Positions 24,830-54,809 are shown, counted from the stretch's first letter. The stretch: 64,000 nucleotides of DNA from an uncultured Bacilli bacterium (GCA_934098505.1 CAKOOR010000002.1:83279-147278), one strand, 5' to 3'. Notes: generated from the sequence alone by a model not told the origin. Translations and numbers: made by a program.

Positions 24830-26245
24830 TTAGTCAATATCAATGGTAATTTTACAACCATTTTCTTTATTTTCAAATGAGTAATCAACTTTGAAACCTT
24901 GTAATTTCAAATTATTAATAACATCTTCAATATCTTTTTTAGCAATATCTAAATCTTCTTTATGGGTTGAAGGTGTATCATTTGTTAGGTTACCTAAAAG
25001 ACTCATAGGGTCAAATAATTCATCATCTTCTTGTTTATTTAAGTTACTATTTAAGTTTGAATTAATTTGTTCTTGATTATTTTTAATTGGTGTAAAAAAT
25101 TTATTATTTGGATTTAAATTACTAATTGATGAGTTATCAAAACTATTAGCAAATGAATTAGAACTAGTAAAATTAGAATAGCTGTCTGGTTCTGGTAAAG
25201 GTTCATTATCTGAACTTGCACTTAGATTAAGATCTGGTTCTAAAACTTCTAAATCCTTCTTTACCGGAGTTGGTTCTTCTGGCTGATCAAAGTTAAAAGA
25301 GAAATAACCTTTGTTACCAACATTTTGTTTAGCTTGGTCTTCAGGCGCTAGAGGTTCTAAAGTTTCAAAGAAAGTAGTTTTATTTGGTACTTCATAAGGA
25401 TTAGTTAAAACGTCGCTATTATTAGAAATTGGTTCTTGTAAAGGATCAATTATTTCGACATTAGGTTTCTCTAAAATTTTTCCACCATTATTTTCGGTAT
25501 CATCTGGGTTTTCGCTATAATCTTTTAAAATATCATCAGTTGGTTGTAATTTATTAGGATTTTTATTGATGTCAAAAGAATTATTTTTAATAGTATCTGC
25601 ATTAAAACTTAAATCAACTAAAGGAATATCAGTTTTATTTTCTTCTTCTTTTAGTTTTTTTAACTCTTGGTCTAATTGACGAACAGTAAGACGCTCAGTA
25701 ATTATTCGGTTTAACCATTCTTTTTCCTTTTCAGCATCATTTAAAACTAATAGACTTCTAGCGTGTCTTTCACTAATCTTGCCTTCAAGTAAAGCTTGTT
25801 GAACACTTTCGTCTAAGTTTAAAAGACGTAATTTATTAGCAACTGAACTTTGGGAAATTCCCATTTTTTGGGCTAATTGTTCTTGAGTATAACCTTTATC
25901 CAAAAGATTTTTATAACTTCGGGCTTCTTCAATTGGGGTTAAATTTCTTCTTTGAATATTTTCAACAAGGGCTATTTCAGCAGAGGAATTATCATCAATA
26001 TTGGAAATTACAGCAGGAACTGTAGTAAGACCAGCCATGATTGAGGCCTTATAACGTCTTTCACCAGCAATTATTTCATATTTACTTCCTAATTTTCTTA
26101 AAACAAGAGGTTGAATTATACCGTGTTCTTTAATTGAAGAAGCTAATTCTTTTAGACCTTGCTCATCAAAGGCTAATCGTGGTTGGAAACGATTAGGTAT
26201 AATATCATCAACACTTACTTGTAAAACATTATCTTCCATTTTCAT
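24830..26245 (-). CDS. noc: nucleoid occlusion protein Noc-type ParB homologue with ~250-aa low-complexity insertion
   Basis: It is directly downstream of rsmG, the canonical noc position. PNRFQPR, GISQSSVANKLRLL and ISERHAR follow the Noc pattern (PNRFQPR/GQSTIANKLRLL/ITERHAR), not the Spo0J pattern (PNPYQPR/SRPHIANHLRLL). There is a long N/S/P-rich disordered region before the C-terminal domain. Confidence 0.7.
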   Translation of the reverse strand: MKMEDNVLQVSVDDIIPNRFQPRLAFDEQGLKELASSIKEHGIIQPLVLRKLGSKYEIIAGERRYKASIMAGLTTVPAVISNIDDNSSAEIALVENIQRRNLTPIEEARSYKNLLDKGYTQEQLAQKMGISQSSVANKLRLLNLDESVQQALLEGKISERHARSLLVLNDAEKEKEWLNRIITERLTVRQLDQELKKLKEEENKTDIPLVDLSFNADTIKNNSFDINKNPNKLQPTDDILKDYSENPDDTENNGGKILEKPNVEIIDPLQEPISNNSDVLTNPYEVPNKTTFFETLEPLAPEDQAKQNVGNKGYFSFNFDQPEEPTPVKKDLEVLEPDLNLSASSDNEPLPEPDSYSNFTSSNSFANSFDNSSISNLNPNNKFFTPIKNNQEQINSNLNSNLNKQEDDELFDPMSLLGNLTNDTPSTHKEDLDIAKKDIEDVINNLKLQGFKVDYSFENKENGCKITIDID

Positions 26246-26293
26246 ATTTTTTGTGGCCCCTTTACTATTATAGTCTATATTTATCATACATTA

Positions 26294-31866: not shown

Positions 31867-32189
31867 TTAATCTCCTTTATTAAACTTGTAAAATTAGATT
31901 CCAGTTCTTGAAAGGAAACATTTTTACAAGTGTTCTTTATCATTATAATATATTTAGCTGAATTTTTGAATTCTTTTTTATAGTTATCCACAAGGAAACG
32001 TACTTGTCTTTTTATTTTGTTTCTTTCCACAGCAGTACCATAACTTTTTTTTACGGCAATACCAAACTGTGGATAACTTTGGGGATAACTTTTTAGATAG
32101 ATTGTAAATAATTTATTAGTAACAAATTTTTTGTTGTGAATAATTTCTTGAAAATCATTGTTGGCTTTAACCATTTCTATTCTTTTCAT
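31863..32189 (-). CDS. rnpA: ribonuclease P protein component
   Basis: FGIAVKKSYGTAVERNKIKRQVR. Confidence 0.85.
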   Translation of the reverse strand: MKRIEMVKANNDFQEIIHNKKFVTNKLFTIYLKSYPQSYPQFGIAVKKSYGTAVERNKIKRQVRFLVDNYKKEFKNSAKYIIMIKNTCKNVSFQELESNFTSLIKEIK

Positions 32190-32225
32190 ACTAACTCCTT
32201 AAGGAAAAAACCACTAGGTAGTGGT

Positions 32226-32348
32226 TTACTTACATAATACTTTACGTCCTTTTTTTCTTCTTGATTTAAGAATATTGCTTTCTTTTCTAGCAAAGAAACC
32301 ATGTTTTTTAGCTTTTTTGCGTTGATTTGGTTGATAAGTTCTTTTCAT
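32226..32348 (-). CDS. rpmH: 50S ribosomal protein L34
   Basis: [40 protein letters not shown]. Missed by the ORF track because it is short. A TTGACA-18-TATAAT promoter lies at 32409-32380 on the minus strand. Confidence 0.85.
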
Positions 32349-32417
32349 TTTGACACCTCCACATCTAATTAGCAAAGTTATTATAATAAAATTTTTAGGA
32401 TATTGTCAAGGTTTTAA

Positions 32418-32450
32418 TGATTATTATTACTTCCCAACCCACCCACCCTT
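32418..32450 (-). repeat. G-rich dispersed repeat copy B, abutting rpmH -35
   Basis: The minus strand reads AAGGGTGGGTGGGTTGGGAAGTAATAATAATCA. It ends 8 bp upstream of the rpmH TTGACA. Confidence 0.7.
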
Positions 32451-32520
32451 AAAGGGATGTTTTTAAAGAATAGTTTATGATTTTAGTTTTATGTTTTAGA
32501 AATTTTATATTTTGATAAAT

Positions 32521-33056
32521 TGTGGATAAGTGTGGATAACTTTTCTTTTATTATTATTATTATATATATATTCATCATCATAATACTGTGGATATGTGGA
32601 TAACTTTTAAAAAAATCCCGAAAGTACGCCAATAAAATGACCGTTTTGAGGTGTTGATAACTTTTGAGTTATCAACAGTTGGGGTGTGGATAACTGTGTT
32701 TTGAGGTGTTGATAACTCCAAAAATAGTCAAAAATCGACCAAAATTTACCTAAAAAAAGTGTCAAGTTTTAGTGTCAAGTAAGAAGTTATCCACAGTTTT
32801 GCCTAAAAATAGTGCATTTATGGGAAGTTATCCACAGGCGTGAGCCCTTATAAACACTGGGCTCAAATGAGTTATCCACATTATCAACAGGTACTACCAC
32901 CCAAGTTATCCACATGTTGATAACAAAAAAAGCCCTAAACTGTGGATAACTCAAAAATTTCCCAGACTTCTGGGAAAAAAACTGTGGATAAACTGTTGAT
33001 AAGTTGTTGATAACCTGTGGACAAAACTGTGGATAACTTTACTAGGGGTGTTGATA
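32521..33056. other. oriC: cluster of >=20 DnaA boxes (TTATCCACA/TTATCAACA) with AT-rich (TTA)n/(TA)n tract
   Basis: Perfect or one-mismatch boxes, in both orientations, at 32521, 32531, 32587, 32595, 32652, 32669, 32686, 32707, 32787, 32828, 32872, 32881, 32906, 32915, 32941, 32973, 32984, 32995, 33007, 33018 and 33048. An AT tract lies at 32546-32582. Confidence 0.9.
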
Positions 33057-33134
33057 ACTTTAAATCGGTAAAAAAGTACGAAAGTTCTTTACTAAAGTTT
33101 TAGGATGTTATAAAATAGGTGTTGATTATTGGTT

Positions 33135-36036: not shown

Positions 36037-36501
36037 ATGGAAGAATTATATTCAATTAATGAAGATACATTATTTTTAGAAGGAGTTGTAGATGATAGGG
36101 GTAAAGTTTTAACTAAAATTTATGAACAAGATAAAGTGTTGAAACTTTATGATACACCAACAAACATTATAAGATACGGTTGTGAATACTTTGGCTCGAC
36201 TTTAGAAGGGCGTCAAAAAGGGTCGATGAGTTTATTGGGAATTAAACATAAAGTTCCGGTAATGGTTGAAGGAAGTATGGAATTAATATTCTTTCCAATG
36301 TGTTCACCAAGAATAAGAGATTGTTCGTGGGTATGTTTTAATAATATTGTAAGCTATAAAAGAAGTGGATATGATACAGAGGTATTATTTAAAAATGGTC
36401 AAAAAATAACTTTAAATATTTCTTATGGAATATTTGAAAATCAATATATGCGTGCTACTAAATTAAAAATGGTTAATACCCTAAGAAAATTGGCAAAATA
36501 A
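36037..36501 (+). CDS. comK: competence transcription factor ComK-like
   Basis: CEYFGSTLEGRQKGS...HKVPVMV, IFFPMCSPRIRDCSWV and ISYGIFENQYMRAT align with B. subtilis ComK. Confidence 0.7.
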   Translation: MEELYSINEDTLFLEGVVDDRGKVLTKIYEQDKVLKLYDTPTNIIRYGCEYFGSTLEGRQKGSMSLLGIKHKVPVMVEGSMELIFFPMCSPRIRDCSWVCFNNIVSYKRSGYDTEVLFKNGQKITLNISYGIFENQYMRATKLKMVNTLRKLAK

Positions 36502-42122: not shown

Positions 42123-42722
42123 TGTTTCACGTGAAACGTATAAACAAGTAATAAGTAAAATATAAAAACAATGTTTCACGTGAAACATTGTTTTTTTTGC
42201 ATAATTTTTTAATGTTTCACGTGAAACATTGACTGTTGATAAAATTTTATGGTTATTTGTTTTAAATAAAAGTTATTTTCAATGATATTTAGAATTAATT
42301 TTTTTAAATACTATTTAAAATTTATATGTTTCACGTGAAACATATAAAAAATGTTGATATTTATTATTTAAATAATAATAGGATAATAAAACTTTACAAC
42401 ATTATTTATATTAAAAAACTAATGTTTCACGTGAAACATTGTTATTAACAAGCATATTTGTATGATTAACGTTAAGCTGATTCAATGGCTTATTAAATAA
42501 TTAATAATCTTGCAATAAATATTTAATGCTTTTTGTTTAAAGTATTTTATACATTAAATTAATTTGGCAGCTAAAATTTATTTATATAAATAAATTATTT
42601 TTTGATTTAAGAAATAAATTTTAATTTAATCATTATTTTAATGTTTCACGTGAAACATTAAAATTTTGTTCATAATAAATAATTGCTAATTAATTATTTT
42701 TTATGATGTTTCACGTGAAACA
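42123..42722. repeat. array of seven parS centromere palindromes (TGTTTCACGTGAAACA)
   Basis: Six perfect 16-bp parS copies at 42172, 42213, 42327, 42423, 42642 and 42707, and a 15/16 copy at 42123. The flanks extend each palindrome to 18-26 bp. Confidence 0.85.
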
Positions 42723-42840
42723 TCATAAAAAAGTTATAAACAGTTTTGCTTGATAAAATATTTTTTATATTGAAGTAGTTATTTATAAAGGAAGGTTAAA
42801 ATTTTTGTTGTATCTTTGGAATTTTTATGGTAATATTAAG

Positions 42841-42919
42841 AGGTGCAATAAGTACATAGGAACTTGGTCAGGGTAGGAATACAGCAGCCATAACTATCAA
42901 TGCTTATGTGCACTTTTTT
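42841..42919 (+). ncRNA. ffs: small SRP RNA (4.5S/ffs)
   Basis: UUGGUCAGGGUAGGAAUACAGCAGCC contains the domain-IV GGUCAGG ... AGCAGCC motifs around a GUA[GGAA]UAC tetraloop stem. The 5'/3' ends pair (gtgcaataag/cttatgtgcac). A T7 terminator and an extended -10 TGgTAATAT lie at 42828-42836. Confidence 0.65.
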
Positions 42920-42932
42920 TATGGAGTTTAAT

Positions 42933-43349
42933 ATGGAACAATACTTTGAATTACTATATAAATTGGCCTTAAAAGCCTTTAGAAACGGCGATATTCCAGT
43001 GGCAGCCATTTTAATTAAAAATGATAAGATCGTTGCTACAGGTTACAATAATAGGCATAAAAAAGGATATGTTTTAGGCCATGCCGAGGTAAATGCTATT
43101 ATCAAAGCTGAGAAGAAACTAAAAGATTTTAGATTAGATGGATACACTATGATTACTACATTAAAACCATGTAAGATGTGCCAAGCCGTAATTGAGGCTT
43201 CAAGAGTATCTAAAGTTTATTACATTTTGGAAGGTAAAGATGATAAAAGTTATCCACAAGCAAATTATGTAAAATTAGATAAAATAGATCAAAAATTTAT
43301 TAAAAATTATTTTGATTTATTTAATGAATTCTTTCAAAATATAAGATAA
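42933..43349 (+). CDS. tadA: tRNA-specific adenosine deaminase
   Basis: HAEVNAI...PCKMC zinc-deaminase motifs. GGAG RBS. The ORF-track start 42900 would overlap the SRP RNA. Confidence 0.75.
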   Translation: MEQYFELLYKLALKAFRNGDIPVAAILIKNDKIVATGYNNRHKKGYVLGHAEVNAIIKAEKKLKDFRLDGYTMITTLKPCKMCQAVIEASRVSKVYYILEGKDDKSYPQANYVKLDKIDQKFIKNYFDLFNEFFQNIR

Positions 43350-43389
43350 ATAAATTCAGTTATGGTATAATAAGGAGCAAGGAGTTTTT

Positions 43390-45030
43390 ATGGATTATCA
43401 AGTATTATATAGAAAATATAGACCTCATGATTTTGATTCTTTGGTAGGTCAGGAATATACGAAAAAATTATTAAAAAATAGCGTTATAAATAATAAGTTT
43501 GCTCATGCCTATATATTTACCGGGCCTAGAGGTACAGGTAAAACAAGTAGTGCTAAAATATTTGCTAAAGCTATTAATTGTTTACATCAGGTTGACGGAA
43601 ATCCATGCAATAAGTGTCAAAATTGTGTAAACTTTGAGAGCAGTCCGGATATAATTGAATTAGATGCTGCTTCTAATAATGGCGTAGATGATATAAGAGA
43701 GATAATAAATAATGTAAGACTAGCACCAAGTAGCATGAAAATTAAGGTTTATATTATTGACGAATTTCATATGTTATCCACAAGTGCTTTTAACGCATTA
43801 TTATTAACTTTAGAAGAGCCACCAAAAGATGTTGTATTTATTTTGGCAACTACTGATATTCAAAGTGTTCCGATAACTGTTTTATCCAGATGTCAAAGAT
43901 TTGATTTTAAACCAATTTCTATTCAAGATATTGAAGATAGATTGAAATATGTTTGTACTGAAGAAAAATTAAATGTTACGGATGAAGCTATTAAAGAAAT
44001 AGCAATGATGTCAAATGGTGGATTGAGAGATGCTTTAAGTATTTTAGATCAAGTAGCAAGTAATGGAGAAGAGATTACTGTTCAAGATGTAATTGCTAAT
44101 TTTGGAGGAGTATCAAATAAAAAGATAAATCAACTATTAGATTATTATGAAGCTAATAGTGTAAGTGAATTAATAGATTATATTAATGAGATTAAAAATG
44201 ATGGTATTGATATAAAAATTTTAATTGATAAATTGGTAACAAGAATTAAAAATGTATTAATAGATATTAAATTAGATAATTATAATGGGAAACTAGATTT
44301 TGATAATTTATATAACTTAGTTTTTGAATTAAATAAATTATTGACTAGTGAGAGAAATGGTGCTAATTATTATGATTTATTAGAAATTATATTTTTAAAG
44401 TATATAAATTATTTCCCGGGAAATAATTTTGTGGATAAAAAAACGACAAAGTTATCTGATCGTGAAAAAGAGTCAGCTGTAATCCAAAATGCGGAAGAAA
44501 GTCCAATAGTATCAGTACCTGCAGCAGAGCAACCAATTATTTCCCAAAAAAATCAATCTCAAGAAAAAAATAAAAATATTGACTTTGATGTAGATATTAG
44601 AATAAATAATACTTTTGTTAATGCTAAAAAAGAATTTTTAAATAATATAAAAAGCAAGTGGAATGATTTTGTTATCTATGAAAGTAATGCTAATAAAGCT
44701 ATGCTATCTTATTTAGCTGATACTAATATTGTTGCAGCTTCGAATAAATATGCGATATTGACTAATAATTTAGATATTACTAATGATTTAATTAATCAAA
44801 ATATTAAAACATTAGAAAAAGATTTTAATTTATTTTTTAATGGTAATTATTGTTTAGCGGCTATATCGCCAAAAAAATGGGAACAAGAACGAAATAAATA
44901 CATAAATAATATCAAAAATGGATATAAATATGAGATAATAGATAATGATATAATTATTAAAGAAGATAAAAGTGAATTAGAAAAGATTGCTAAGGAAATC
45001 TTTGGCAATAATTATAAGAAAGTAGAATAA
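43390..45030 (+). CDS. dnaX: DNA polymerase III subunits gamma/tau
   Basis: GPRGTGKTS Walker A and the Zn module CNKCQNC. Confidence 0.9.
   Translation: MDYQVLYRKYRPHDFDSLVGQEYTKKLLKNSVINNKFAHAYIFTGPRGTGKTSSAKIFAKAINCLHQVDGNPCNKCQNCVNFESSPDIIELDAASNNGVDDIREIINNVRLAPSSMKIKVYIIDEFHMLSTSAFNALLLTLEEPPKDVVFILATTDIQSVPITVLSRCQRFDFKPISIQDIEDRLKYVCTEEKLNVTDEAIKEIAMMSNGGLRDALSILDQVASNGEEITVQDVIANFGGVSNKKINQLLDYYEANSVSELIDYINEIKNDGIDIKILIDKLVTRIKNVLIDIKLDNYNGKLDFDNLYNLVFELNKLLTSERNGANYYDLLEIIFLKYINYFPGNNFVDKKTTKLSDREKESAVIQNAEESPIVSVPAAEQPIISQKNQSQEKNKNIDFDVDIRINNTFVNAKKEFLNNIKSKWNDFVIYESNANKAMLSYLADTNIVAASNKYAILTNNLDITNDLINQNIKTLEKDFNLFFNGNYCLAAISPKKWEQERNKYINNIKNGYKYEIIDNDIIIKEDKSELEKIAKEIFGNNYKKVE
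44406..44441. repeat. 36-bp module: Noc-binding-site palindrome TTATTTCCCGGGAAATAA + DnaA box TGTGGATAA, inside dnaX
   Basis: AAATTATTTCCCGGGAAATAATTTTGTGGATAAAAA is identical to the 46850-46885 copy. Confidence 0.7.
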
Positions 45031-45043
45031 GGAGATTTTTATT

Positions 45044-45337
45044 ATGAATATGCAAAATTTAATGGCTCAAGCTCAAAGAATGCAAAGAGATATTATGAAA
45101 AAGAAAGAAGAAGTAGAAAAGAAAACTTTTATTGGTTCTAGTGATTTAGTTACTGTTACTGTAAATGGTAAGAAAGAATTACAAAAGGTAGAATTTTCTT
45201 CTAATGTTGCTGCTGATGATTTAGAAATTTTACAAGACATGGTTGTTATTGCTACAAATAAAGCAATGGAACAAGTTGATGCTGCTATGGAAAGCGCAAT
45301 GGGACAATATGGTAGCATGTTTAATGGTTTATTCTAA
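45044..45337 (+). CDS. ybaB: nucleoid-associated protein YbaB/EbfC
   Basis: 97 aa, at the conserved dnaX-ybaB-recR position. Confidence 0.8.
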   Translation: MNMQNLMAQAQRMQRDIMKKKEEVEKKTFIGSSDLVTVTVNGKKELQKVEFSSNVAADDLEILQDMVVIATNKAMEQVDAAMESAMGQYGSMFNGLF

Positions 45338-45939
45338 TGATCTATCCAAAAGTATTGATGGATTTAATTGAATATTTTAGGAAGTTGCCAGGTATTGGTG
45401 AAAAAAGTGCGGAGCGTATGGCTTTAGCACTTTTAGACATTAATACAGAGGATGTTAGTGCGTTTGCTGATGCGATGTGCAATGCCAAATTGAAATTACA
45501 TCCGTGTTCTATATGTGGTTGTTTAACTGAGTTAGAAGTATGTCAAATATGTTCGAGTGAAGCTAGAGATAACGATGTAATTTGTGTGCTAGAAGACTAT
45601 AAAGGTGTTTTTGCTTTTGAAAAAACTGGGAAATTTAATGGAAAATATCATGTATTAAACGGTTTAATTTCTCCTATCGAAGATATTGGCCCTGAAGATA
45701 TAAATATTTATGGATTAATTGAGCGGATTAAATATATGCCTGAAGTAGAACTTATTATAGCTTTAAAACCATCTATTGAAGGAGAAACAACTACTTTGTA
45801 TTTAAAAAAGATTTTAGAAAAATATTCTAATGTAAAAATATCACGTTTATCGTACGGTATCCCAATGGGAGTAGATATTGATTATTTAGATGAATTGACA
45901 TTACTAAATGCGTTAAGTGAAAGAAAGAATATTACATAA
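45337..45939 (+). CDS. recR: recombination protein RecR
   Basis: The HhH motif, the C4 zinc finger CSICG...CQIC, and Toprim. Confidence 0.9.
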   Translation: MIYPKVLMDLIEYFRKLPGIGEKSAERMALALLDINTEDVSAFADAMCNAKLKLHPCSICGCLTELEVCQICSSEARDNDVICVLEDYKGVFAFEKTGKFNGKYHVLNGLISPIEDIGPEDINIYGLIERIKYMPEVELIIALKPSIEGETTTLYLKKILEKYSNVKISRLSYGIPMGVDIDYLDELTLLNALSERKNIT

Positions 45940-45965
45940 AGTTAAGCTAAACATCATATATTGGA

Positions 45966-46163
45966 GTGGTGATATATATGCATAACTTTGTTAAAATATT
46001 AAAAAAATTAATTTTTTCTTTTTTATTATTATTTGGATTAAATACTATGCTAAAATATATAGGGATAATTATTCCTATTAATTATATTAATTTATTAGTA
46101 ACTTACTTTTTAGGTGGATTTGGAATAATATCTTTAATAATAATTAAATTTTTTATAATATAG
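45966..46163 (+). CDS. bofA: sigma-K processing inhibitor BofA-like membrane protein
   Basis: IPINYINLLVTYFLGGFGIISLIIIKFFII resembles the BofA C-terminus (HVPINF...GIAALVIIKQFII). The position after recR matches the B. subtilis recR-yaaL-bofA order. Confidence 0.55.
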   Translation: MVIYMHNFVKILKKLIFSFLLLFGLNTMLKYIGIIIPINYINLLVTYFLGGFGIISLIIIKFFII

Positions 46164-46180
46164 TAGTATGGAGATGAAGT

Positions 46181-46999
46181 ATGAGTAGTTTAAAAATGAT
46201 ACAAAATTTAATTAATAAATATGAGACTGGAAGACTATCTCATGCTTTTTTAGTTGAAACAAATAATATAGATCTATGTTTAAATGATATTAAATTATTT
46301 GTAAAATATATTAATTGTTCACATAAATATAATGAGAATTGCAATGAATGTAATTTGTGCAAGCTAATAGATTTGAATAATTTACCAAGTTTAACTATTA
46401 TTGAACCAGATGGTATGAGTATTAAGAAAAATCAATTGCAAGAATTGCAAGATAAATATAGTATGAAACCTGTATATTCAAAATATAATACTTATATTAT
46501 TTTAAATGCTGAATTGATGAACGCTTCATCTGCTAATAGTATACTTAAATTTTTAGAAGAACCAACTGACCATATAATTGGATTTTTAATAACTACTAAT
46601 AAAGAAAAAATGCTAGATACAATAATTAGTAGATGTCAAAATGTAAAGTTTATTTATAAGGATACAAATGAAAATAATGAAAATATTAAATTAATCGCAA
46701 CAGAGTATTTAGATCAAATAGAAAATGATAATTCATTTTTAATAAATAAAACATTGATTTTGAGTACATTGACAACTAGATATGATATAAATAATTTGTT
46801 TATTGAAATTTTGTATCAATTAATGAAAAAAATTAGAGAAAATTATTTCCCGGGAAATAATTTTGTGGATAAAAATCTAAATAAATATAATATGCAAATT
46901 GAAATCGTTCGAAAAGTTTTAATCATGATTAAACAAAATGTTAATTTAGAATTATTATTAGATTACTTTGTTATAGAGATGAGGAAATTAAATGAATGA
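46181..46999 (+). CDS. holB: DNA polymerase III delta' subunit
   Basis: AAA+-like with a cysteine module CNECNLCK. Positioned before yaaT. Confidence 0.7.
   Translation: MSSLKMIQNLINKYETGRLSHAFLVETNNIDLCLNDIKLFVKYINCSHKYNENCNECNLCKLIDLNNLPSLTIIEPDGMSIKKNQLQELQDKYSMKPVYSKYNTYIILNAELMNASSANSILKFLEEPTDHIIGFLITTNKEKMLDTIISRCQNVKFIYKDTNENNENIKLIATEYLDQIENDNSFLINKTLILSTLTTRYDINNLFIEILYQLMKKIRENYFPGNNFVDKNLNKYNMQIEIVRKVLIMIKQNVNLELLLDYFVIEMRKLNE
46850..46885. repeat. second copy of 36-bp NBS+DnaA-box module, inside holB
   Basis: Identical 36 bp. It encodes YFPGNNFVDK in the same frame as in dnaX. Confidence 0.7.
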
Positions 47000-47780
47000 A
47001 ATTTATAAAGTTTTAATTGAAAATAAAAAAAGTATTAATGCCTTGTCTAATTTTGGGAAATATTTAATTGGTGATTATGTCGTAGTTAAGACTAATAGAG
47101 GCGAACAATATGGCAGAATTGATAGTATAATCAATAATGGTAGCGATGAAATAAATGATATATATATAATAAGGAAAGCAAATAATAAAGATTATAATAA
47201 TTATTTGAAGAATTTACGTCAAAGTGAAGAAATGCTTAGGTTTGCTAAACATGAAGCTAATCGCTTAAAATTGACGATGAATTTTATAAGTGCTGACTTA
47301 ACTTTAGATAATAAGCATTTATTATATTATTTCGTAGCTGATGAAAGAGTTGATTTTAGAGAATTGGCTAAAGATATTGCTGGTAAGTATAGACTACGAG
47401 TTGAATTAAGACAAATTGGAGCTAGAGATAAGGCTAAATTAATTGATGGTCTTGGGCCTTGTGGTAGACGTTTATGTTGTACAAGTTTCTTAGATAAGTT
47501 AGATTCTATTAGTATGAATATGGCTAAGAATCAAGGTATTGCTCTAAATCCTTCTAAAATAAATGGTGTTTGTGGTCGTTTAATGTGTTGTTTAACTTAT
47601 GAAAATGATAATTATACTGAATGTCATAAGCAGTTACCTGGGATTGGCAAAATAGTAGAAACAGAATATGGCACTGGAAAAGTTGTTAATGAAGATGTAT
47701 TAAATTTAAAATATACAGTCAACGTTAATAATGAGTTAAAAGAAATTAAGGTAATAAATGATGAAAATAGAATTAAATGA
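46992..47780 (+). CDS. ricT: PSP1 domain protein RicT/YaaT
   Basis: GPCGRRLCCTSFL and GVCGRLMCCLTYE, the PSP1 C-terminal motifs. Confidence 0.8.
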   Translation: MNEIYKVLIENKKSINALSNFGKYLIGDYVVVKTNRGEQYGRIDSIINNGSDEINDIYIIRKANNKDYNNYLKNLRQSEEMLRFAKHEANRLKLTMNFISADLTLDNKHLLYYFVADERVDFRELAKDIAGKYRLRVELRQIGARDKAKLIDGLGPCGRRLCCTSFLDKLDSISMNMAKNQGIALNPSKINGVCGRLMCCLTYENDNYTECHKQLPGIGKIVETEYGTGKVVNEDVLNLKYTVNVNNELKEIKVINDENRIK

Positions 47781-48465
47781 TTTATATGACTATGGTATGA
47801 AAATATATCAAGCAAAAAACTTATTTAAGTTTTCTATAGATAGTATTCTTTTGGCCGAGTTTGTAGATATTAGATGGAATAGTAATTTAATTGTAGATTT
47901 TTGTACTGGTAATGCTGCTGTTCCTTTAATCTTGTCTACTAAGTATAAAAGTCAAATAATTGGTTTTGAAATACAAAAGCAAGTTTCAACACTTGCTTAC
48001 AATTCTGTTTTGTTAAATAATTTAGAAAATCAAATTAAGATAATTAATGATAATTTAAGTACAGCTTTAGAGTATATTTTACCAGAAACGGTGGATGCTA
48101 TTACATGTAATCCTCCATATTTTAAAATTAATGAAGGATCATATTTAAATGATGATGAAGGTAAAAGAATTGCTCGCCACGAAATTGCTACTAATTTGGA
48201 ACAGATTATTATGACAGCTAAATATTTATTAAAAAATAGAGCACCTATATATTTGGTTCATCGTCCAGAAAGATTAATCGAAATAATAAACATTTTAAAT
48301 AAATATAAATTTAGTATAAAAAAAATACAATTAGTTTATTCTAGTTTTGATAAGCCGGCTGTTATGGTTTTAATAAAAGCTACAAAAAATGGCGCAGATG
48401 GGGTTATAATTAATCAGCCATTAAATATTGCAAATAGAAATACTTATAAAAATATTTTTAGATAG
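47758..48465 (+). CDS. class I SAM-dependent methyltransferase, YabB/TrmN6-like
   Basis: The NPPYF motif. At the yabB position. Confidence 0.65.
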   Translation: MMKIELNDLYDYGMKIYQAKNLFKFSIDSILLAEFVDIRWNSNLIVDFCTGNAAVPLILSTKYKSQIIGFEIQKQVSTLAYNSVLLNNLENQIKIINDNLSTALEYILPETVDAITCNPPYFKINEGSYLNDDEGKRIARHEIATNLEQIIMTAKYLLKNRAPIYLVHRPERLIEIINILNKYKFSIKKIQLVYSSFDKPAVMVLIKATKNGADGVIINQPLNIANRNTYKNIFR

Positions 48466-48477
48466 GAAGTAATAAAA

Positions 48478-49029
48478 ATGAAATTAATTGTTGGATTAGG
48501 AAATCCTGGTAAGGAATATGAAAATACAAGACATAACATTGGTTTTATGGTACTAAATTATTTTTCGGGAAATAATTTGTGGAAAGAAAAATTTAACGGT
48601 ATGTATTGTCAACAAAATGTAAAGGGAGAAAAAGTTATATTTTTAAAGCCACTTACTTATATGAATTTATCTGGTAGTTGTGTAATTAAATATGTTAAGT
48701 ATTTTGATATTAAAATAGATGACATTTTAATAATTCAAGATGACTTAGATTTACCTTATATGCAGTATCGCTTAAAATATGATAGTTCAGCAGGTGGTCA
48801 CAATGGAATTAAATCAATTATTAATAATTTAGGAACGCAAAAAATACCAAGATTAAAAATAGGTATAGCTCATGATCGTAGTATAGATACTAAGGATTAT
48901 GTGCTGGGACATTTTAATAAAGAAGATTTAATTTTGTTTGAAGAAAAAACTAAAATATTCAATAATATTATAAATGATTTTATTTCCCAAGATATTAATT
49001 ATTGTATGGCAAATTATAATAGAAAATAG
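48478..49029 (+). CDS. pth: peptidyl-tRNA hydrolase
   Basis: MKLIVGLGNPGKEYENTRHNIGF and AGGHNGIKS. Confidence 0.9.
   Translation: MKLIVGLGNPGKEYENTRHNIGFMVLNYFSGNNLWKEKFNGMYCQQNVKGEKVIFLKPLTYMNLSGSCVIKYVKYFDIKIDDILIIQDDLDLPYMQYRLKYDSSAGGHNGIKSIINNLGTQKIPRLKIGIAHDRSIDTKDYVLGHFNKEDLILFEEKTKIFNNIINDFISQDINYCMANYNRK
48555..48590. repeat. degenerate third copy of NBS-like module inside pth
   Basis: AAATTATTTTTCGGGAAATAATTTGTGGAAAGAAAA, in-frame as NYFSGNNLWKEK. Confidence 0.45.
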
Positions 49030-49042
49030 ATAGGTAATTGTT

Positions 49043-52000
49043 ATGGACTTTTTAAATAATTATTTTAAATATCAAAATAAGATTGAAATAGTTGGTTTAA
49101 CTTCTGAGTTGAACATTTTTTGCATACTTAATTATTTTCAAAAAATAAATAAAAGTATTTTGGTTTTAACTAATACTTTATATGAGGCTAATAAGTACTT
49201 TGATTCTATATCAACTTTCACAGATGATTGTTTATTATTTCCAATGGATGATTTTGTAGCTTCTGTAGCTTTAGCAATATCTCCAGAGCTAAAAATTAAA
49301 AGACTAGAAACTATTAATATTTTGAAAGAAAATAATCATAAAATAATTGTTACTAATTTAATGGGATTTTTGAGATATCTTCCAGATCATAAAACGGCAA
49401 GTAAATTAGAATTTAAGTTAGAAACAGGAATGTCTATTAATCGAGATAAAATTTTAGAAGTTTTAGATTCTTTTGGCTATAAACGAGATACATTGGTAAC
49501 ATCAACAGGTGAGTATGCCGTTAGAGGTTATGTTATTGATTTGTTTTTAATAGAACAAGAACACCCTATAAGAATTGAATTCTTTGGTAATGAAATTGAA
49601 TCTATTCGTTTTTTTGATGAAAATACGCAGATGTCAATTAAAGAAGTAAAGGAAATAATTTGTCTTCCTTATCAAGAAATTGCCACTTCAACAAAAAGTT
49701 CAATTCTCGATTATTTAGATACACCGACAGTATTTGAAATTGACAAAGAAGATATAGACTTAGGATATGAAAAATTATCTGAGGAAATTTTAGCATATAA
49801 AAAAGAAAATAATATTGATAAAGATTTAATGTTTAGATTAGAAGATATTAATATAAAGAATGTTATATACCTTAATAAATTTGTAATTAATAGAAGTTGT
49901 GCTATTGTTTATCAAAGTAATACTTTAGATAACTTTAATTCTAACTTTCAATTATTACGAGAATTTGTAAATAAAAAATTAACAGATAAAAAGACAGTTA
50001 TTTTTTGCTTGTCTAGAAAAGCTGAGATTGATTTTATTAAAGAAATGTTTCATGTAACTAGAGTAGTTGATGAAGAACATTTATTTATAGAAAAAGTTAA
50101 TATTTTAAACAAGAAAATTAATAATGGTTTTGAATTTGATAAATTTGTGGTTATTGGTGAATACGATATTGAGAAAATAAACACCAGAGAAATTAAATAT
50201 AAGAATAGTTATAAAATTGGTAAAAAGATAAGGGGTTTTGATCAATTACAAGTTGGAGATTATGTTGTTCACACTATTCATGGTATTGGACAATACCAAG
50301 GAGTTATTTCATTAACCAAAAATGGTGTAGTGAAAGATTATTTACAAATTATATACGCTGATAATGATAAAATTTATGTTCCAGTTGAAAAGATTAGTAC
50401 TATTTTTAAATATTCATCAAAAGATGGAGTTGCTCCTGTTTTAAGCAAATTAAATGGGACGGCTTGGGCAAAGACTAAAAAGGCTTTACAGAAGAAGATT
50501 CACGATATTTCATTGGAACTTATTAAATTATATGCTGCTCGTAGTAAAGTCACAGGACCAGTTTTTATAGATGATCCAATGGATGTAATGTTTGATGCTG
50601 ATTTTAAATATGAACCAACAATTGATCAGCAAAAAGCTTTTTTTGATGTAAAAAAAGACTTAGAAAATAAAGTACCAATGGATCGCTTATTGTGTGGTGA
50701 TGTTGGTTTCGGTAAAACAGAAGTGGCTTTCCGAGCTATGTTTATGACTGCGATTAATGGTTTCCAAGTAGCTTATTTGTGTCCAACAACTATATTAAGT
50801 AATCAACAATATGAAAATGCTTTACAAAGATTTAAGAACTTCCCAGTAGAAATTGCTTTATTAAACCGATTTACAACTAAAAAAGAAGCTGAACGGATTA
50901 TTGCTGGTTTAAAAAATGGAACAATCGATATTGTTTTTGGTACCCATCGTTTGTTGAGTGATGATGTTGGTTATAAAAATTTAGGTTTATTAGTAGTTGA
51001 TGAAGAACAAAGATTTGGTGTAACACATAAAGAAAAAATCAAAAAGTATAAGAATGATGTTAATGTGTTAACTTTATCAGCAACACCAATTCCAAGAACT
51101 TTAAAGATGGCTATGTCTGGTTTACGAGATTTATCAATAATTGATACAGCGCCGGTAAATAGATATCCAGTTCAAACTTATGTTATAAAAGAACAAGATA
51201 TGGTGGTTAAAGATGCTATTTATAAAGAATTAGGACGTAATGGTCAAATTTTTGTTTTGTATAATCGAATTGATAGTATTGAAAGTAAGAAAAATGAATT
51301 ACAACGTTTAGTACCAGAAGCAAGAATAGTAATTGCCCATGGTCGGATGAATAAATCTCAAATGGAAGATGTAATGCAAGATTTTATTGATCATAAATAT
51401 GATATTTTATTGTGTACTACGATTATTGAAACAGGAATCGATATAGCAAATGCTAATACATTAATAATTTATGATGCTGATCGTTTTGGCTTAAGTCAGT
51501 TGTATCAGATTAGAGGGCGGGTTGGTAGAAGTTCTAAAATTGCTTATGCTTACCTTATGTATAGTAAAGATAAAATGCTAAATGAAATTGCTGTTAAACG
51601 ATTAGAGGCTATTAAAGAATTTACAGAATTAGGAAGCGGCTACCGAATTGCCATGCGAGATTTGTCGTTGCGCGGTGCTGGTGATATTTTAGGAAGCGAC
51701 CAAGCGGGATTTGTCGATGCAGTTGGCTTAGATTTATATATGAAAATGGTTGATGATGAAGTTAAACGACTTAATGGTGAAGAACCAGTAGAGGATAAAT
51801 CGAATAATTCTTTAATTGATGTTGATACCCATATTAGTGATTCTTATGTATCTGATGAATCATTAAAAATTGAAATCCATCAAAAAATTAATAAAATTGA
51901 TAGTTTTGATAAATTAATAGAAATTCAAAAAGAATTAGAAGATCGTTTTGGTAAAATTAATGATCAAATTAAAGTATATATGTATGAAGAATGGTTTGAA

Positions 52001-52469: not shown

Positions 52470-54809
52470 ATGGCTAATAGAATGGTTCTTAATGAAACTT
52501 CTTATTTTGGCTGGAATGCTAGAGAAAATTTAGTATCAGAAATCAAAAAAAGAAATTTCAAAAGAATATTAGTTGTAAGTGATGAAAATTTAGTTAAATG
52601 TGGGGTAACTGGTAAAGTAACTGAATTGTTGGATAATGCTAAGATAAAGTATAGTGTCTTCGATAAAGTTAAACCTAATCCAACAATTAGTAATTGTCAT
52701 GATGGGATAAGGGCTGCTAAGAAATTTCATGCTGATAGTTTAATTGCTGTTGGTGGTGGAAGTGTTATTGATACGGCTAAATGTATTGGTATCGTCATTA
52801 ATAATAGAGAATTTTATGATATAAATTCTTTAGAAGGTGTTGCAGATACTAAGAATAAGTCGTTACCTATAATTGCTTTACCAACAACCGCTGGTACGGC
52901 GGCAGAGGTAACAATTAATTATGTAATTACAGATGAAATTGGGAAAGTTAAAAGAGTTTGTGTAGATACAAATGACATTCCTGTTTTAGCAATAATTGAT
53001 ACAGAATTAATGAGTAAAATGCCTAAAATGACGGCTGCTGCCACAGGGTTAGATGCACTAACTCATGCGATGGAAGGATATATTACGAAGGCTCATTGGG
53101 AAATTCCCGATATGTTCCATTTACAAAGTATGGGAATGACTTATAAAAATTTAGTAAAGTCCGTTAATAAAGAACGAGATGCTCAAGAACAAATGGCAAT
53201 GAGTGAATATATTGCGGGTATGGGATTTTCTAATGTCGGACTTGGGATTGTTCATTCCATGGCTCACCAATTAGGGGCAACTTATGATATTGCTCATGGT
53301 ATTGCTTGTAGTTTATTTTTACCATATGTTTTAGAGTGGAATGGAGAAGTTGCTTATGATAGATATCGTAAGATGGCAGAAAGTTTTGGTTTAACAACAA
53401 CTGGCAAAACTGATAAACAATGTGTAGAACTTGTTGTTAGAGCAGTTCGTGATTTAGAAAAGACTTTAAAAGTACCAATGACTTTAAAAGAATTAAATGT
53501 AAGTCCAGATAGTTTTGAAGAAATGGCTGCTAAGGCTTTAATTGATCCTTGTACGGGTGGTAATCCACGAGAAGTTACAAAGGAAGATATTATTGAACTA
53601 TTTAATAGAGCTTATGAAGGAAAAGGAGTTAGTAAAAACATGAGAACTAAAGTTGGTTATAGTGAAAATGTAGATGCTTATACAAGTGGTGTTGAAACTG
53701 CTAAAATGGCTAATAAAATAGAGAATCCACAAGTTGGTTTATTATTTACCAGTTGTGTTCAAGATCAAAAAGAAATCATGAAAGGTATTAAGAGTGTCTT
53801 AAAAGATATAGACATTGTTGGTTGTACTTCTAGTGCTGCTATATGTACTCAAGATGGTTATTTAAATAAACCTACTGGTTATTCTGGGATGATGTTATTA
53901 GGTGGTGGTGCTAAGGTTGTTGCCGCTGGTTCGCCAAAGACTAATGATGATGCTAGAAGTATTGGTCGTAAATTAGCAACTAAGGCTGTTAAAGAGGCTA
54001 ATTGTATTGAAAAACCAAGTTATGTATTTGTAAGTGCTTCACCAAAAGAAGAAGAAGAATACTTAAAAGGTATTGCTGATGTAATTGGTGATGTTCCAGT
54101 ATTTGGTGGTAGTGCTGCTGATAATACAGTTGAAGGTAAATGGAGTTTACTATATAATGGTGAGGCTTTTGCTGATGGTTGTGTTATGGCTTTAATTTAT
54201 GCTGATACTGAGATTAAAAACTTGTATACAGGTAATTATATAGAAACTAATGACGCTGGTTTAATTACCGAAGTTAAAGATAAAAGAACATTAGTATCTA
54301 TTAATGGAAAACCTGCATTAGATGTTTATGCTGATTGGACTGGTAAAAAGATAGAAGACATGATGGGTAATAATTTATTAACAGAAACAATCTTCAATCC
54401 ACTTGGAGTAAAAGATCAAATTGGTAATGTTACGGCTGTTAGACATCCGATGTTTGCTAATGTTGATAAATCAATGAATATTGGGGCTAATTTAGAAGAA
54501 AATACGGCTATTATTCATTTAACTAATACCCCAGAAGGTATGTTAGATAGTAATGCTTGTGTAGTTAAGAAATTAAATGATTTAATGGATAATACACCAG
54601 AAAGTTATTTCCTTGTTCACTGTGGTGGTCGTCGTTTAGGACTTCAATTAACTAATATGGAAGATAAAATTTATCCAGCTATTAAGAAGGCAATTCCTAA
54701 AAAAGAATTCTTAATGGTATTTACCTTTGGTGAATATGGTAGATGTGAACATTCTAGTAATATTGTTGGTGGTTTATCTCTATCATTTACTGGATTTGGA
54801 AAGGAATAA
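52470..54809 (+). CDS. iron-containing alcohol dehydrogenase fused to an uncharacterised ~390-aa C-terminal domain (possibly FIST-like sensor fold)
   Basis: The N-terminal half carries Fe-ADH motifs (GGGSVIDTAK, the His cluster HAMEGY...HSMAHQLG). The C-terminal half has no ALDH or ADH motifs and ends FTFGEYG...HSSN. Confidence 0.6.
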   Translation: MANRMVLNETSYFGWNARENLVSEIKKRNFKRILVVSDENLVKCGVTGKVTELLDNAKIKYSVFDKVKPNPTISNCHDGIRAAKKFHADSLIAVGGGSVIDTAKCIGIVINNREFYDINSLEGVADTKNKSLPIIALPTTAGTAAEVTINYVITDEIGKVKRVCVDTNDIPVLAIIDTELMSKMPKMTAAATGLDALTHAMEGYITKAHWEIPDMFHLQSMGMTYKNLVKSVNKERDAQEQMAMSEYIAGMGFSNVGLGIVHSMAHQLGATYDIAHGIACSLFLPYVLEWNGEVAYDRYRKMAESFGLTTTGKTDKQCVELVVRAVRDLEKTLKVPMTLKELNVSPDSFEEMAAKALIDPCTGGNPREVTKEDIIELFNRAYEGKGVSKNMRTKVGYSENVDAYTSGVETAKMANKIENPQVGLLFTSCVQDQKEIMKGIKSVLKDIDIVGCTSSAAICTQDGYLNKPTGYSGMMLLGGGAKVVAAGSPKTNDDARSIGRKLATKAVKEANCIEKPSYVFVSASPKEEEEYLKGIADVIGDVPVFGGSAADNTVEGKWSLLYNGEAFADGCVMALIYADTEIKNLYTGNYIETNDAGLITEVKDKRTLVSINGKPALDVYADWTGKKIEDMMGNNLLTETIFNPLGVKDQIGNVTAVRHPMFANVDKSMNIGANLEENTAIIHLTNTPEGMLDSNACVVKKLNDLMDNTPESYFLVHCGGRRLGLQLTNMEDKIYPAIKKAIPKKEFLMVFTFGEYGRCEHSSNIVGGLSLSFTGFGKE

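What the first reader, a model, noticed from the sequence alone, without database searches (positions are those of the whole stretch)
44406..48590. Identical 36-bp Noc-binding-palindrome + DnaA-box module embedded in-frame in dnaX and holB, with a degenerate copy in pth
AAATTATTTCCCGGGAAATAATTTTGTGGATAAAAA occurs identically at 44406 (dnaX) and 46850 (holB), and with 6 changes at 48555 (pth). Its core TTATTTCCCGGGAAATAA is an 18-bp perfect palindrome matching the Noc-binding site consensus ATTTCCCGGGAAAT. The adjacent TGTGGATAA is a perfect DnaA box. All three copies are read in the same frame (N-Y-F-P/S-G-N-N...) in otherwise unrelated or divergent protein regions. A shared DNA-level element is therefore far more likely than protein homology.
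Basis: partly seen in the sequence, partly recalled or inferred. Interest (0 to 1): 0.75.

Follow-up and report, generated by a model that had tools for sequence, protein, structure and literature searches.

The report
Noc-site plus DnaA-box inside genes
A 36-base stretch repeated exactly inside two replication genes is not a shared protein motif but two abutting protein-binding DNA sites, a Noc-type palindrome and a DnaA box, that selection keeps in place next to the replication origin across a large group of uncultured gut bacteria.

Summary
It consists of a 24-bp perfect palindrome whose core is the published Noc-binding site (NBS), a consensus DnaA box (TGTGGATAA), and AAA. The pth copy is a decayed NBS that is perfect in sister strains and species.

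Comparison with 80 related species and 120 metagenome contigs shows selection on the DNA rather than the peptide:
- The palindrome in dnaX is read as NYFPGNN in some lineages and IISREII in others.
- It is the longest invariant run in dnaX across the genus.
- It uses rare codons.

The window encodes a ParB/Noc paralogue with NBS-specifying residues (Q, K, N, R). This paralogue belongs to a large subfamily that lacks Noc's membrane-targeting helix.

In this clade, NBS sites are concentrated around oriC, beside or interleaved with parS arrays; the window has seven parS sites 1.7 kb upstream. Perfect DnaA boxes abut NBS sites in nine independent contexts against 0.07 expected, including repeated NBS–DnaA box–parS modules.

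This is a new variant of a known kind. No binding has been measured; it is inferred.

The parts
44406..44429 (.). 24-bp perfect palindrome AAATTATTTCCCGGGAAATAATTT in dnaX (codons for N-Y-F-P-G-N-N-F, residues 340-347). Its central 14/16 bp is the canonical NBS.
   Evidence: It lies within the longest invariant run (36 nt) in dnaX among 5 genus-level genomes. The clade-wide flank consensus extends the site to 22-24 bp.
44430..44438 (-). Perfect DnaA box (TTATCCACA on the minus strand, TGTGGATAA on the plus strand) directly abutting the palindrome.
   Evidence: It is invariant in 6 species although GTG makes up only 4.4% of Val codons. Conservation ends 2 nt after the box.
46840..46863 (.). Identical 24-bp NBS palindrome in holB (HolB residues 221-228).
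   Evidence: The 36-nt window is the most conserved window of holB. In L003 and L008 an F>S change hits the single spacer base and leaves the 22-bp palindrome and the box intact.
46864..46872 (-). Second perfect DnaA box, in the same position and orientation relative to the palindrome.
48555..48578 (.). Decayed NBS in pth. One half-site is mutated CC>TT (ATTTTTCGGGAAAT), and there is no DnaA box.
   Evidence: The same position is a perfect NBS in another strain of the same species (L002) and in L003-L008.
44535..44545 (.). Relic half-NBS AATTATTTCCC in the dnaX linker (P-I-I-S-Q-K, residue 382). It aligns with a full NBS read as IISREII in other lineages.
42123..42722 (.). Array of seven parS sites (six perfect TGTTTCACGTGAAACA, one with 1 mismatch) in the gyrA-tadA spacer, 1.7 kb upstream of the first NBS.
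   Evidence: 69 of the 80 related loci hold at least one parS-like site (up to 1 mismatch) and 53 hold three or more, nearly all in the 2 kb upstream of dnaX.
24830..26287 (-). ParB/Noc-family gene directly downstream of rsmG and the presumed NBS-binding protein. Its true start is probably M15 at 26245.
   Evidence: nucleoid_noc 271.6 bits, cut-off 315. (best PDB match is Noc; residues Q/K/N/R at positions 173/179/184/201). (a subfamily without the N-terminal helix).
31984..33057 (.). oriC DnaA-box cluster upstream of dnaA (33129-34508). It places the NBS sites 11-15 kb from the origin on the right arm.
   Evidence: about 30 boxes with 0-1 mismatch. (GC-skew switch).

Best explanation
The 36-mer is a composite protein-binding DNA site overprinted on coding sequence.

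What is shown:
- A 24-bp palindrome carries the canonical Noc-binding-site core and is directly followed by a consensus DnaA box.
- Both are conserved at the DNA level, independently of the peptide they encode.
- They sit 11-15 kb from oriC, just downstream of a seven-copy parS array.
- In this clade such palindromes are concentrated around oriC.
- The window encodes a ParB/Noc paralogue with the NBS-specifying residues.

What is inferred:
- This paralogue nucleates on the palindromes and, like ParB and Noc, closes into a CTP-dependent clamp. It then spreads over the origin-proximal DNA beside the ParB-parS complex.
- DnaA occupies the abutting box, so that Noc-like clamp loading and DnaA binding influence each other. 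Possible modes are titration, a roadblock, or release of DnaA near the origin.

The sites lie in dnaX, holB and pth because those genes happen to occupy the required chromosomal position. They offer poorly constrained protein segments (the DnaX post-domain-III linker, the HolB C-terminal domain, a Pth loop) that tolerate NYFPGNN or IISREII. The two copies are identical because both match the same two optimal motifs at the same spacing, with occasional gene conversion not excluded.
For: DNA-level selection:
- The dnaX NBS is read in frame c (NYFPGNN) in some lineages and in frame a (IISREII) in others, at several alignment columns. 40 of 79 DnaX genes carry one to three copies.
- The ybaB copies use the third frame.
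- The module is the longest invariant run in dnaX and the most conserved window in holB, and conservation stops 2 nt after the box.
- The module is built from rare codons: TTC 16%, CCG 8%, GTG 4.4%.
- An F>S substitution in L003 and L008 spares both motifs.

Identity as an NBS:
- It matches the published NBS exactly.
- There are 214 perfect cores in 80 species' dnaX loci against 0.004 expected, and 79 of 80 loci carry at least one.

Cognate protein:
- The best solved homologue is Noc, with Q173, K179 and R201.
- Published work shows that Q173 and R201 plus a single Lys at 179 or 184 suffice for NBS specificity (PMC7383237).
- The 150 closest cluster representatives are almost all QK(N/S/T)R.

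Origin-proximal clustering:
- Site density peaks in the parS array and in the 1-6 kb downstream of it.
- An unbiased metagenome scan for the 22-mer gave 98 loci on the oriC-right side, 10 on the oriC-left side, 7 at polA-fpg and 5 short unassigned loci, out of 120.
- No other NBS with 2 or fewer mismatches occurs in about 74 kb around this oriC.

DnaA box:
- A perfect box abuts the NBS in 9 independent flank clusters against 0.07 expected. At more distant offsets the count is 2 against 0.17 expected.
- Repeated NBS-DnaA box-parS modules occur in L091, L096, L136, L156 and L129.

Precedents:
- S. aureus Noc restrains replication initiation.
- Caulobacter DnaA binds boxes inside the parS centromere.
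Against: - No binding data exist for this uncultured organism.
- The protein lacks K184, lacks the N-terminal amphipathic helix that defines Noc's mechanism, and scores below the NCBIfam Noc cut-off. What it does after binding is therefore open.
- At the dnaX and holB positions the box is perfect only within the genus. L006 has the one-mismatch form TGTTGATAA in both genes, and L007 has two-mismatch and one-mismatch forms. Most NBS sites in the clade have no adjacent box.
- The parallel G/T state of both copies in L006 could reflect gene conversion rather than independent selection.
- The whole-genome distribution of NBS sites in this species was not available.
- No canonical ParB gene was found in the 74 kb examined.
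Confidence: 0.6

Rival explanations
1. The palindrome is a real NBS, but the adjacent DnaA box in dnaX and holB has no function. It arose once, was copied with the NBS from one gene to the other by a short gene-conversion tract, and persists by hitch-hiking or weak peptide constraint (F-V-D-K).
For: The box weakens in the sister genus (L006 TGTTGATAA in both genes; L007 TGCTGATAA and TGTAGATAA). The same G>T state in both L006 copies looks like concerted evolution. Most NBS sites in the clade lack a box. The pth copy has none.
Against: GTG makes up 4.4% of Val codons yet is kept in 12 of 12 genus-level copies. The flanking codons diverge freely right after the box. The F>S change spares the box. 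L006's TGTTGATAA is the one-mismatch variant that is abundant in this genome's own oriC. Boxes abut NBS sites in 9 independent contexts against 0.07 expected, including intergenic arrays where no codon constraint exists.
Confidence: 0.25
2. Protein-level conservation: NYFPGNNFVDK is a functional peptide shared by the paralogous clamp-loader subunits DnaX and HolB.
For: DnaX and HolB are paralogues (29% identity over the AAA+ domain). The peptide is read in the same frame in all three genes.
Against: The peptide lies off the paralogous register: the offset is 119 residues against 16-18 in the aligned domain. It also lies outside the regions alignable to solved structures. Pth is unrelated. Other lineages encode IISREII or FPGK from the same DNA. 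The palindrome is equally common in intergenic DNA (98 of 221 sites).
Confidence: 0.02
3. A small mobile palindromic repeat that inserts in frame into genes, like Rickettsia palindromic elements or REP/MITE-type repeats.
For: The sequence is palindromic, occurs in multiple copies and lies in frame within unrelated genes.
Against: It is only 24 bp long, with no flanking shared sequence or target duplication. The copies sit at orthologous positions across genera. The pth copy adds no length. The copies are confined to the origin region rather than dispersed. The sequence equals a known protein-binding site.
Confidence: 0.03
4. RNA-level function: the palindrome forms an mRNA hairpin that regulates translation. 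One candidate role is dnaX frameshifting to make a gamma-like product, since an A7 run follows at 44437-44443.
For: The site lies at the domain III/linker boundary where E. coli makes gamma. A run of seven A follows the box.
Against: The hairpin is weak (-6.9 and -9.2 kcal/mol, z about -1). The A run is not conserved even within the genus. The hairpin would lie upstream of the slippery run, not downstream. The same palindrome occurs in intergenic arrays and in many genes. Rfam finds nothing there.
Confidence: 0.02
5. The palindrome is recognised by some other factor, such as a different transcription factor or a restriction-modification system acting on CCCGGG, and not by the Noc-like protein.
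For: CCCGGG is a common restriction site. The CC>TT decay in pth resembles deamination of methylated cytosines. Binding by the Noc-like protein has not been tested.
Against: Conservation extends 12 bp on each side of the centre, far beyond a 6-bp restriction site. The 16-bp core equals the NBS exactly. A protein with the matching specificity residues is encoded in the window and throughout the clade.
Confidence: 0.05

Closest known systems
Noc-NBS nucleoid occlusion system of Bacillus subtilis and Staphylococcus aureus
   Same: The 14/16-bp palindromic core is identical. The binding protein is a ParB paralogue with Q173, K179 and R201 and with the CTP-binding motifs (FQPR, GERR, ENLQR). Its gene lies next to rsmG. 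As in those species, sites can lie inside genes.
   Different: - The site is conserved over 22-24 bp rather than 16.
- Sites are few and packed around oriC and parS, rather than about 40-70 sites spread over the origin-proximal half to two-thirds of the chromosome.
- The protein lacks the N-terminal membrane-targeting helix and K184. It carries a long low-complexity insert and scores below the NCBIfam Noc cut-off.
ParB-parS chromosomal centromeres (origin-proximal parS clusters)
   Same: Both are origin-proximal clusters of a 16-bp-core palindrome bound by a ParB-family CTPase. Here the NBS sites physically share the locus with a parS array.
   Different: The sequence differs at the two specificity positions of each half-site (NBS rather than parS). 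The protein has Q173/R201 where ParB proteins have R173/G201.
DnaA boxes in the Caulobacter parS centromere (Mera et al. 2014, as reviewed in PMC6399470), and oriC-proximal DnaA-box clusters of B. subtilis (PMC3245932)
   Same: Consensus DnaA boxes lie outside oriC, in or beside the centromere region. This links the initiator to the segregation machinery or to control of initiation.
   Different: Here single boxes abut a Noc-type palindrome within 0-1 nt of its edge, sometimes sandwiched between an NBS and a parS, and in this window they lie inside coding sequence.
S. aureus Noc as a negative regulator of replication initiation (PMC5540599)
   Same: A Noc-family protein is functionally linked to DnaA and origin firing by an unknown mechanism.
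   Different: That link is genetic. No NBS-DnaA box juxtaposition was reported there, and S. aureus Noc has the canonical architecture.

Membership tests
Noc-binding site (NBS) | Palindromic core ATTTCCCGGGAAAT (16 bp: TATTTCCCGGGAAATA) | tested here: met
   Exact matches at 44411 and 46845. The pth copy has 2 mismatches. The reference sequence comes from PMC7383237.
Noc-binding site (NBS) | A cognate Noc-type ParB paralogue with NBS-specifying residues is encoded in the genome | tested here: met
   Gene 24830-26287(-) has Q/K/N/R at positions 173/179/184/201. One Lys at 179 or 184 suffices for specificity.
Noc-binding site (NBS) | Occupied by Noc in vivo or in vitro, with spreading over several kb | not testable with these tools
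   The organism is uncultured and there are no ChIP or binding data.
Noc-binding site (NBS) | [quoted passage not shown] | tested here: inconclusive
   In this clade 108 of 120 sampled sites lie next to oriC. There are only 3 sites in 74 kb here. The whole genome was not available, so weaker scattered sites cannot be excluded.
Noc protein (nucleoid occlusion factor) | ParB-like N-terminal CTP-binding domain and HTH domain with Q173/K179/K184/R201 | tested here: met
   E = 1e-56 to Noc 7ng0. The FQPR, GERR and ENIQR motifs are present, and 3 of the 4 specificity residues match.
Noc protein (nucleoid occlusion factor) | N-terminal amphipathic membrane-targeting helix (alpha1, alpha2 and loop, about 25 residues before beta1) | tested here: not met
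   The alignment to Noc starts at query residue 18-20 against Noc residue 25-27. Clade homologues start 2-5 residues before beta1. 143 of 146 parsed representatives have only 14-21 residues before the PNRFQPR motif. The feature is defined in PMC8429893.
Noc protein (nucleoid occlusion factor) | Score above the curated NCBIfam TIGR04285 cut-off | tested here: not met
   271.6 bits against a cut-off of 315.
Noc protein (nucleoid occlusion factor) | Gene adjacent to rsmG (gidB) near oriC, and paralogous to a separate ParB | tested here: inconclusive
   The gene is adjacent to rsmG. A related locus, L125, has rsmG-noc-soj-spo0J with an R...G ParB. No second ParB was found in the 74 kb examined for this species.
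DnaA box | 9-mer TTATCCACA | tested here: met
   Perfect at 44430-44438 and 46864-46872.
DnaA box | Conservation beyond what coding constraint explains | tested here: met
   Invariant in 12 of 12 genus-level copies with the rare GTG codon. Adjacency to an NBS recurs in 9 independent contexts against 0.07 expected. The box weakens to 1-2 mismatches in the sister genus.
DnaA box | Bound by DnaA | not testable with these tools
   No binding data.
In-frame mobile palindromic repeats (RPE/REP-like) | Element with shared flanks or insertion scars, dispersed across the genome, with presence/absence relative to orthologues | tested here: not met
   Identity ends at the motif edges. The copies occupy orthologous positions and are confined to the origin region.

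The most novel reading that the evidence does not exclude
In this large clade of uncultured gut Bacilli, the helix-less QKNR Noc paralogue is not a membrane-tethering nucleoid-occlusion factor. It would instead be a second, origin-specific ParB-type CTP clamp. Its loading sites (NBS) are physically wired to DnaA boxes and parS sites, as tripartite NBS-DnaA box-parS modules or, in this genome, as NBS-DnaA box sites overprinted on dnaX and holB. The composite locus would couple replication initiation to origin segregation. That would give a sequence-level handle on the unexplained Noc-DnaA link seen in S. aureus.
Probability: 0.3. Interest if true: 0.8.

Novelty: new variant of a known kind. Interest (0 to 1): 0.65.

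Why it matters
Noc is understood as a membrane-tethering division inhibitor whose sites are scattered over much of the chromosome. How S. aureus Noc restrains DnaA is unknown.

This analysis shows four things:
- A large Noc-like subfamily keeps NBS specificity but lacks the membrane helix.
- Its sites are packed at the origin, together with parS.
- DnaA boxes abut those sites far more often than chance allows.
- The sites are maintained inside essential genes by overprinting in alternative reading frames.

Together this gives directly testable composite sites (24-mer plus box, and NBS-box-parS) for biochemical study of Noc/ParB/DnaA interplay. It is also a clear natural example of a protein-coding sequence shaped by a DNA-binding-site constraint.

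Tried and rejected
- **Protein homology between DnaX and HolB.** BLASTP shows the peptide is an isolated island off the paralogous register. PDB alignments stop well before it.
- **RNA structure or frameshift signal.** The hairpins are weak, Rfam finds only an SRP RNA elsewhere, and the A7 run is not conserved.
- **Longer duplication or gene conversion.** No other exact repeat lies between the genes. A short conversion tract cannot be excluded.
- **Search for a second ParB-family gene.** tblastn of the Noc-like N-terminal part against the window and 80 related loci found only the gene itself. Extending the left end of the window by 10 kb found none. The right-end look-up returned only 2-kb contigs.
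- **The search for homologous proteins on DnaX.** It returned only relatives at 89% identity or above and gave no gradient. The gradient came from the genome-contig scan instead.
- **Taxonomy look-up of 'Mycoplasma sp. CAG:956'.** This failed on the name syntax.
- **Whole-genome mapping of NBS sites relative to ori and ter.** The metagenome 22-mer scan served as a proxy.


Full report
**Observation.** The 36-mer AAATTATTTCCCGGGAAATAATTTTGTGGATAAAAA occurs exactly at 44406-44441 and at 46840-46875. No shuffle of the window gave a match. It is the only exact repeat of 20 nt or more in 43000-49100. NCBIfam confirms the hosts as dnaX (43390-45030), holB (46181-46999) and pth (48478-49029). The perfect palindrome is 24 bp, not 18. 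It is followed directly by TGTGGATAA, the reverse complement of the perfect DnaA box, and then by AAA. The whole 36-nt identity is therefore 24 + 9 + 3 nt. The pth copy (48555) has CC>TT in one half-site, a 1-nt deletion and no DnaA box. All three copies are read in the same codon phase.

**Setting.** The window spans oriC, a dense DnaA-box cluster at about 31984-33057 upstream of dnaA, with a GC-skew switch there. The gene order to the right of oriC is dnaA-dnaN-(ComK-like)-recF-gyrB-gyrA-[spacer]-tadA-dnaX-ybaB-recR-bofA-holB-ricT-methyltransferase-pth-mfd. The gyrA-tadA spacer holds seven parS sites, six of them perfect. It also holds an SRP RNA. The organism is an uncultured gut member of Bacilli close to 'Mycoplasma sp. 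CAG:956'.

**DNA-level or protein-level conservation.** I fetched dnaX plus or minus 10 kb from 80 species with DnaX identity from 97% down to 39%.
- 79 of the 80 loci hold at least one perfect 14-nt NBS core. The total is 214 against 0.004 expected.
- In coding DNA the palindrome is read in all three frames. In dnaX it is NYFPGNN in some lineages and IISREII in others. It sits at several alignment columns of the variable segment after domain III, and 40 of 79 DnaX genes have one to three copies.
- In ybaB it is read as FPGK. It also recurs in the methyltransferase gene, in holB, pth, recF and mfd, and 98 of 221 sites lie in intergenic DNA.
- Among five genus-level genomes the module is the longest invariant run of dnaX (36 nt against 23 for the next longest). 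It is also the most conserved 36-nt window of holB, and divergence resumes 2 nt after the box.
- It is built from rare codons: TTC 16%, CCG 8%, GTG 4.4%.
- In L003 and L008 a Phe>Ser change hits the one base between the 22-nt palindrome and the box and spares both motifs.
- DnaX and HolB align only in the AAA+ domain (29% identity, register offset 16-18). The shared peptide has an offset of 119 and lies beyond the regions alignable to solved clamp-loader structures.

**Site turnover.**
- The pth site is a perfect NBS in another strain of the same species (L002) and in L003-L008. The window strain carries a recent CC>TT decay.
- A conserved half-site, AATTATTTCCC at 44535, aligns with a full IISREII-frame NBS of other lineages.
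- L007 has lost the holB site, both NBS and box, and has sites at the holB-ricT junction. L006 has those junction sites and also keeps the holB one.

**What binds it.** ATTTCCCGGGAAAT is the published 14-bp NBS. The gene at 24830-26287(-), directly after rsmG, is a ParB/Noc-family protein.
- Its best solved homologues are Noc proteins (196 bits, against 173 for Spo0J).
- The alignments give Q, K, N and R at positions 173, 179, 184 and 201. Noc has QKKR and ParB has R..G.
- Jalal et al. showed that Q173 and R201 switch specificity to the NBS and that one Lys at 179 or 184 is enough. Binding of this protein to the palindromes is therefore a well-founded inference, but it has not been measured.

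The protein is not a canonical Noc.
- It scores below the NCBIfam Noc cut-off.
- It lacks the roughly 25-residue N-terminal extension with the amphipathic membrane helix that defines Noc's mechanism.
- The 150 best 50%-identity cluster representatives of its N-terminal part are nearly all QK(N/S/T)R, never K184. Of the 146 that could be parsed, 143 have only 14-21 residues before the PNRFQPR motif. Their lengths range from 227 to 821 residues.

This is a large and distinct subfamily. A related contig (L125) has rsmG-noc-soj-spo0J with a normal R...G ParB. For this species no ParB was seen in 74 kb. The parS arrays imply that one exists elsewhere.

**Distribution.**
- In the 80 species loci, NBS density peaks in the parS array (the 2 kb upstream of dnaX), in the dnaX linker, and 3-6 kb downstream. 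It is near zero in most other bins, with minor peaks at about -7 kb (the recF sites) and +8 to +10 kb (mfd).
- The clade consensus extends the site to 22-24 bp: core plus A, A, T, T, T.
- An unbiased scan of metagenome contigs for the 22-mer returned 120 loci. Of these, 98 carry dnaA..mfd genes, 10 carry rnpA..noc genes, 7 lie at the polA-fpg junction, and 5 are short and unassigned.
- In this species there is no further NBS with 2 or fewer mismatches, and no further parS, in about 74 kb.

This differs from the B. subtilis and S. aureus pattern of tens of sites spread over the origin-proximal half or more of the chromosome.

**The DnaA box.**
- It is perfect in all 12 genus-level copies. In L006 it is TGTTGATAA in both genes, a one-mismatch variant that is abundant in this genome's oriC. 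In L007 it is weaker still.
- After clustering flanks and using a position-specific background, perfect boxes sit 3-5 nt after the 14-nt core in 9 independent contexts against 0.07 expected. At offsets 6-35 the count is 2 against 0.17 expected.
- In several contigs the gyrA-tadA spacer is built of repeated NBS-DnaA box-parS units, for example AAATTATTTCCCGGGAAATAATT-TTATCCACA-A-TGTTTCACGTGAAACA.

The juxtaposition is therefore a recurrent feature of the clade, and it also occurs where no codon constraint can act. I take this as moderate support that the box is functional. The alternative, hitch-hiking or gene conversion at these two particular sites, remains plausible.

**Mechanism (inferred).** The Noc-like protein nucleates on the palindromes and, by analogy with ParB and Noc, forms CTP-dependent clamps that spread over the origin-proximal DNA next to ParB-parS. 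DnaA bound at the abutting box would be positioned to be displaced by clamp loading, to block it, or to cooperate with it. Precedents are S. aureus Noc restraining initiation, Caulobacter DnaA binding boxes in the parS centromere, and oriC-proximal DnaA-box clusters acting with Spo0J in B. subtilis. Without the membrane helix, classical nucleoid occlusion by membrane tethering is doubtful.

**Verdict.** The finding is a new variant of a known kind (NBS/Noc). It leads to a broader pattern that, as far as my literature searches show, has not been described. That pattern combines origin-restricted NBS clusters joined to parS and DnaA boxes, a helix-less Noc subfamily, and binding sites overprinted on essential genes in alternative frames.

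Noticed in passing
window 42123-42722: Array of seven parS sites (six perfect TGTTTCACGTGAAACA, each within ATGTTTCACGTGAAACAT) in the gyrA-tadA spacer. Most related species have similar arrays of 3-9 sites at the same place.
   Followed up: yes
window 42834-42929 (+): Bacterial small SRP RNA (RF00169, 60 bits) between the parS array and tadA. It overlaps the first ATG of the mechanical tadA ORF (42900), so tadA probably starts at 42933.
   Followed up: partly
window 24830-26287 (-): The Noc-like protein belongs to a large subfamily (at least 150 clusters at 50% identity) with Q-K-N-R specificity residues and no N-terminal membrane helix. Members carry a variable low-complexity insert before the C-terminal domain and range from 227 to 821 aa. 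The true start here is probably M15 (26245).
   Followed up: yes
L091 350/621/1025; L096 239/655/1060/1333/1753; L136 557; L156 448/844; L129 (5 copies): Repeated tripartite modules in which an NBS palindrome, a DnaA box and a parS site abut one another within 0-1 nt, in the gyrA-tadA spacer of other members of the clade.
   Followed up: partly
window 44535-44545: Half-NBS AATTATTTCCC in the dnaX linker (PIISQK), conserved in the genus. It appears to be the relic of a second NBS that other lineages read as IISREII.
   Followed up: partly
window 37968, 38082 (gyrB), 43250 (tadA), 43774 (dnaX): Further perfect DnaA boxes inside coding sequence (Leu-Ser-Thr codons TTA TCC ACA). Among species they toggle between TTATCCACA and the oriC-type variant TTATCAACA. 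Eight perfect boxes lie outside oriC in the window, where roughly one is expected by my own estimate from base composition.
   Followed up: partly
window 48564-48565 versus L002 12380: Within-species polymorphism. The pth NBS is perfect in one strain and CC>TT in the window strain and in L001. These are two adjacent C>T transitions inside CCCGGG, which could reflect deamination of methylated cytosine.
   Followed up: no
window 36037-36501 (+): A ComK-family ORF (PF06338) sits between dnaN and recF. It is conserved at that position across the clade, which is an unusual occupant of the dnaN-recF gap.
   Followed up: no
L088, L120, L137, L169, L170, L176: The polA-fpg (mutM) junction is a recurrent NBS location in the clade outside the dnaA..mfd block. 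In one case it lies on the same 71-kb contig as the dnaX region.
   Followed up: partly
window 52470-54809 (+): A 779-aa protein that combines iron-type alcohol dehydrogenase domains with FIST/FIST_C sensor domains (Pfam hits listed). It is followed by an aldehyde dehydrogenase.
   Followed up: no
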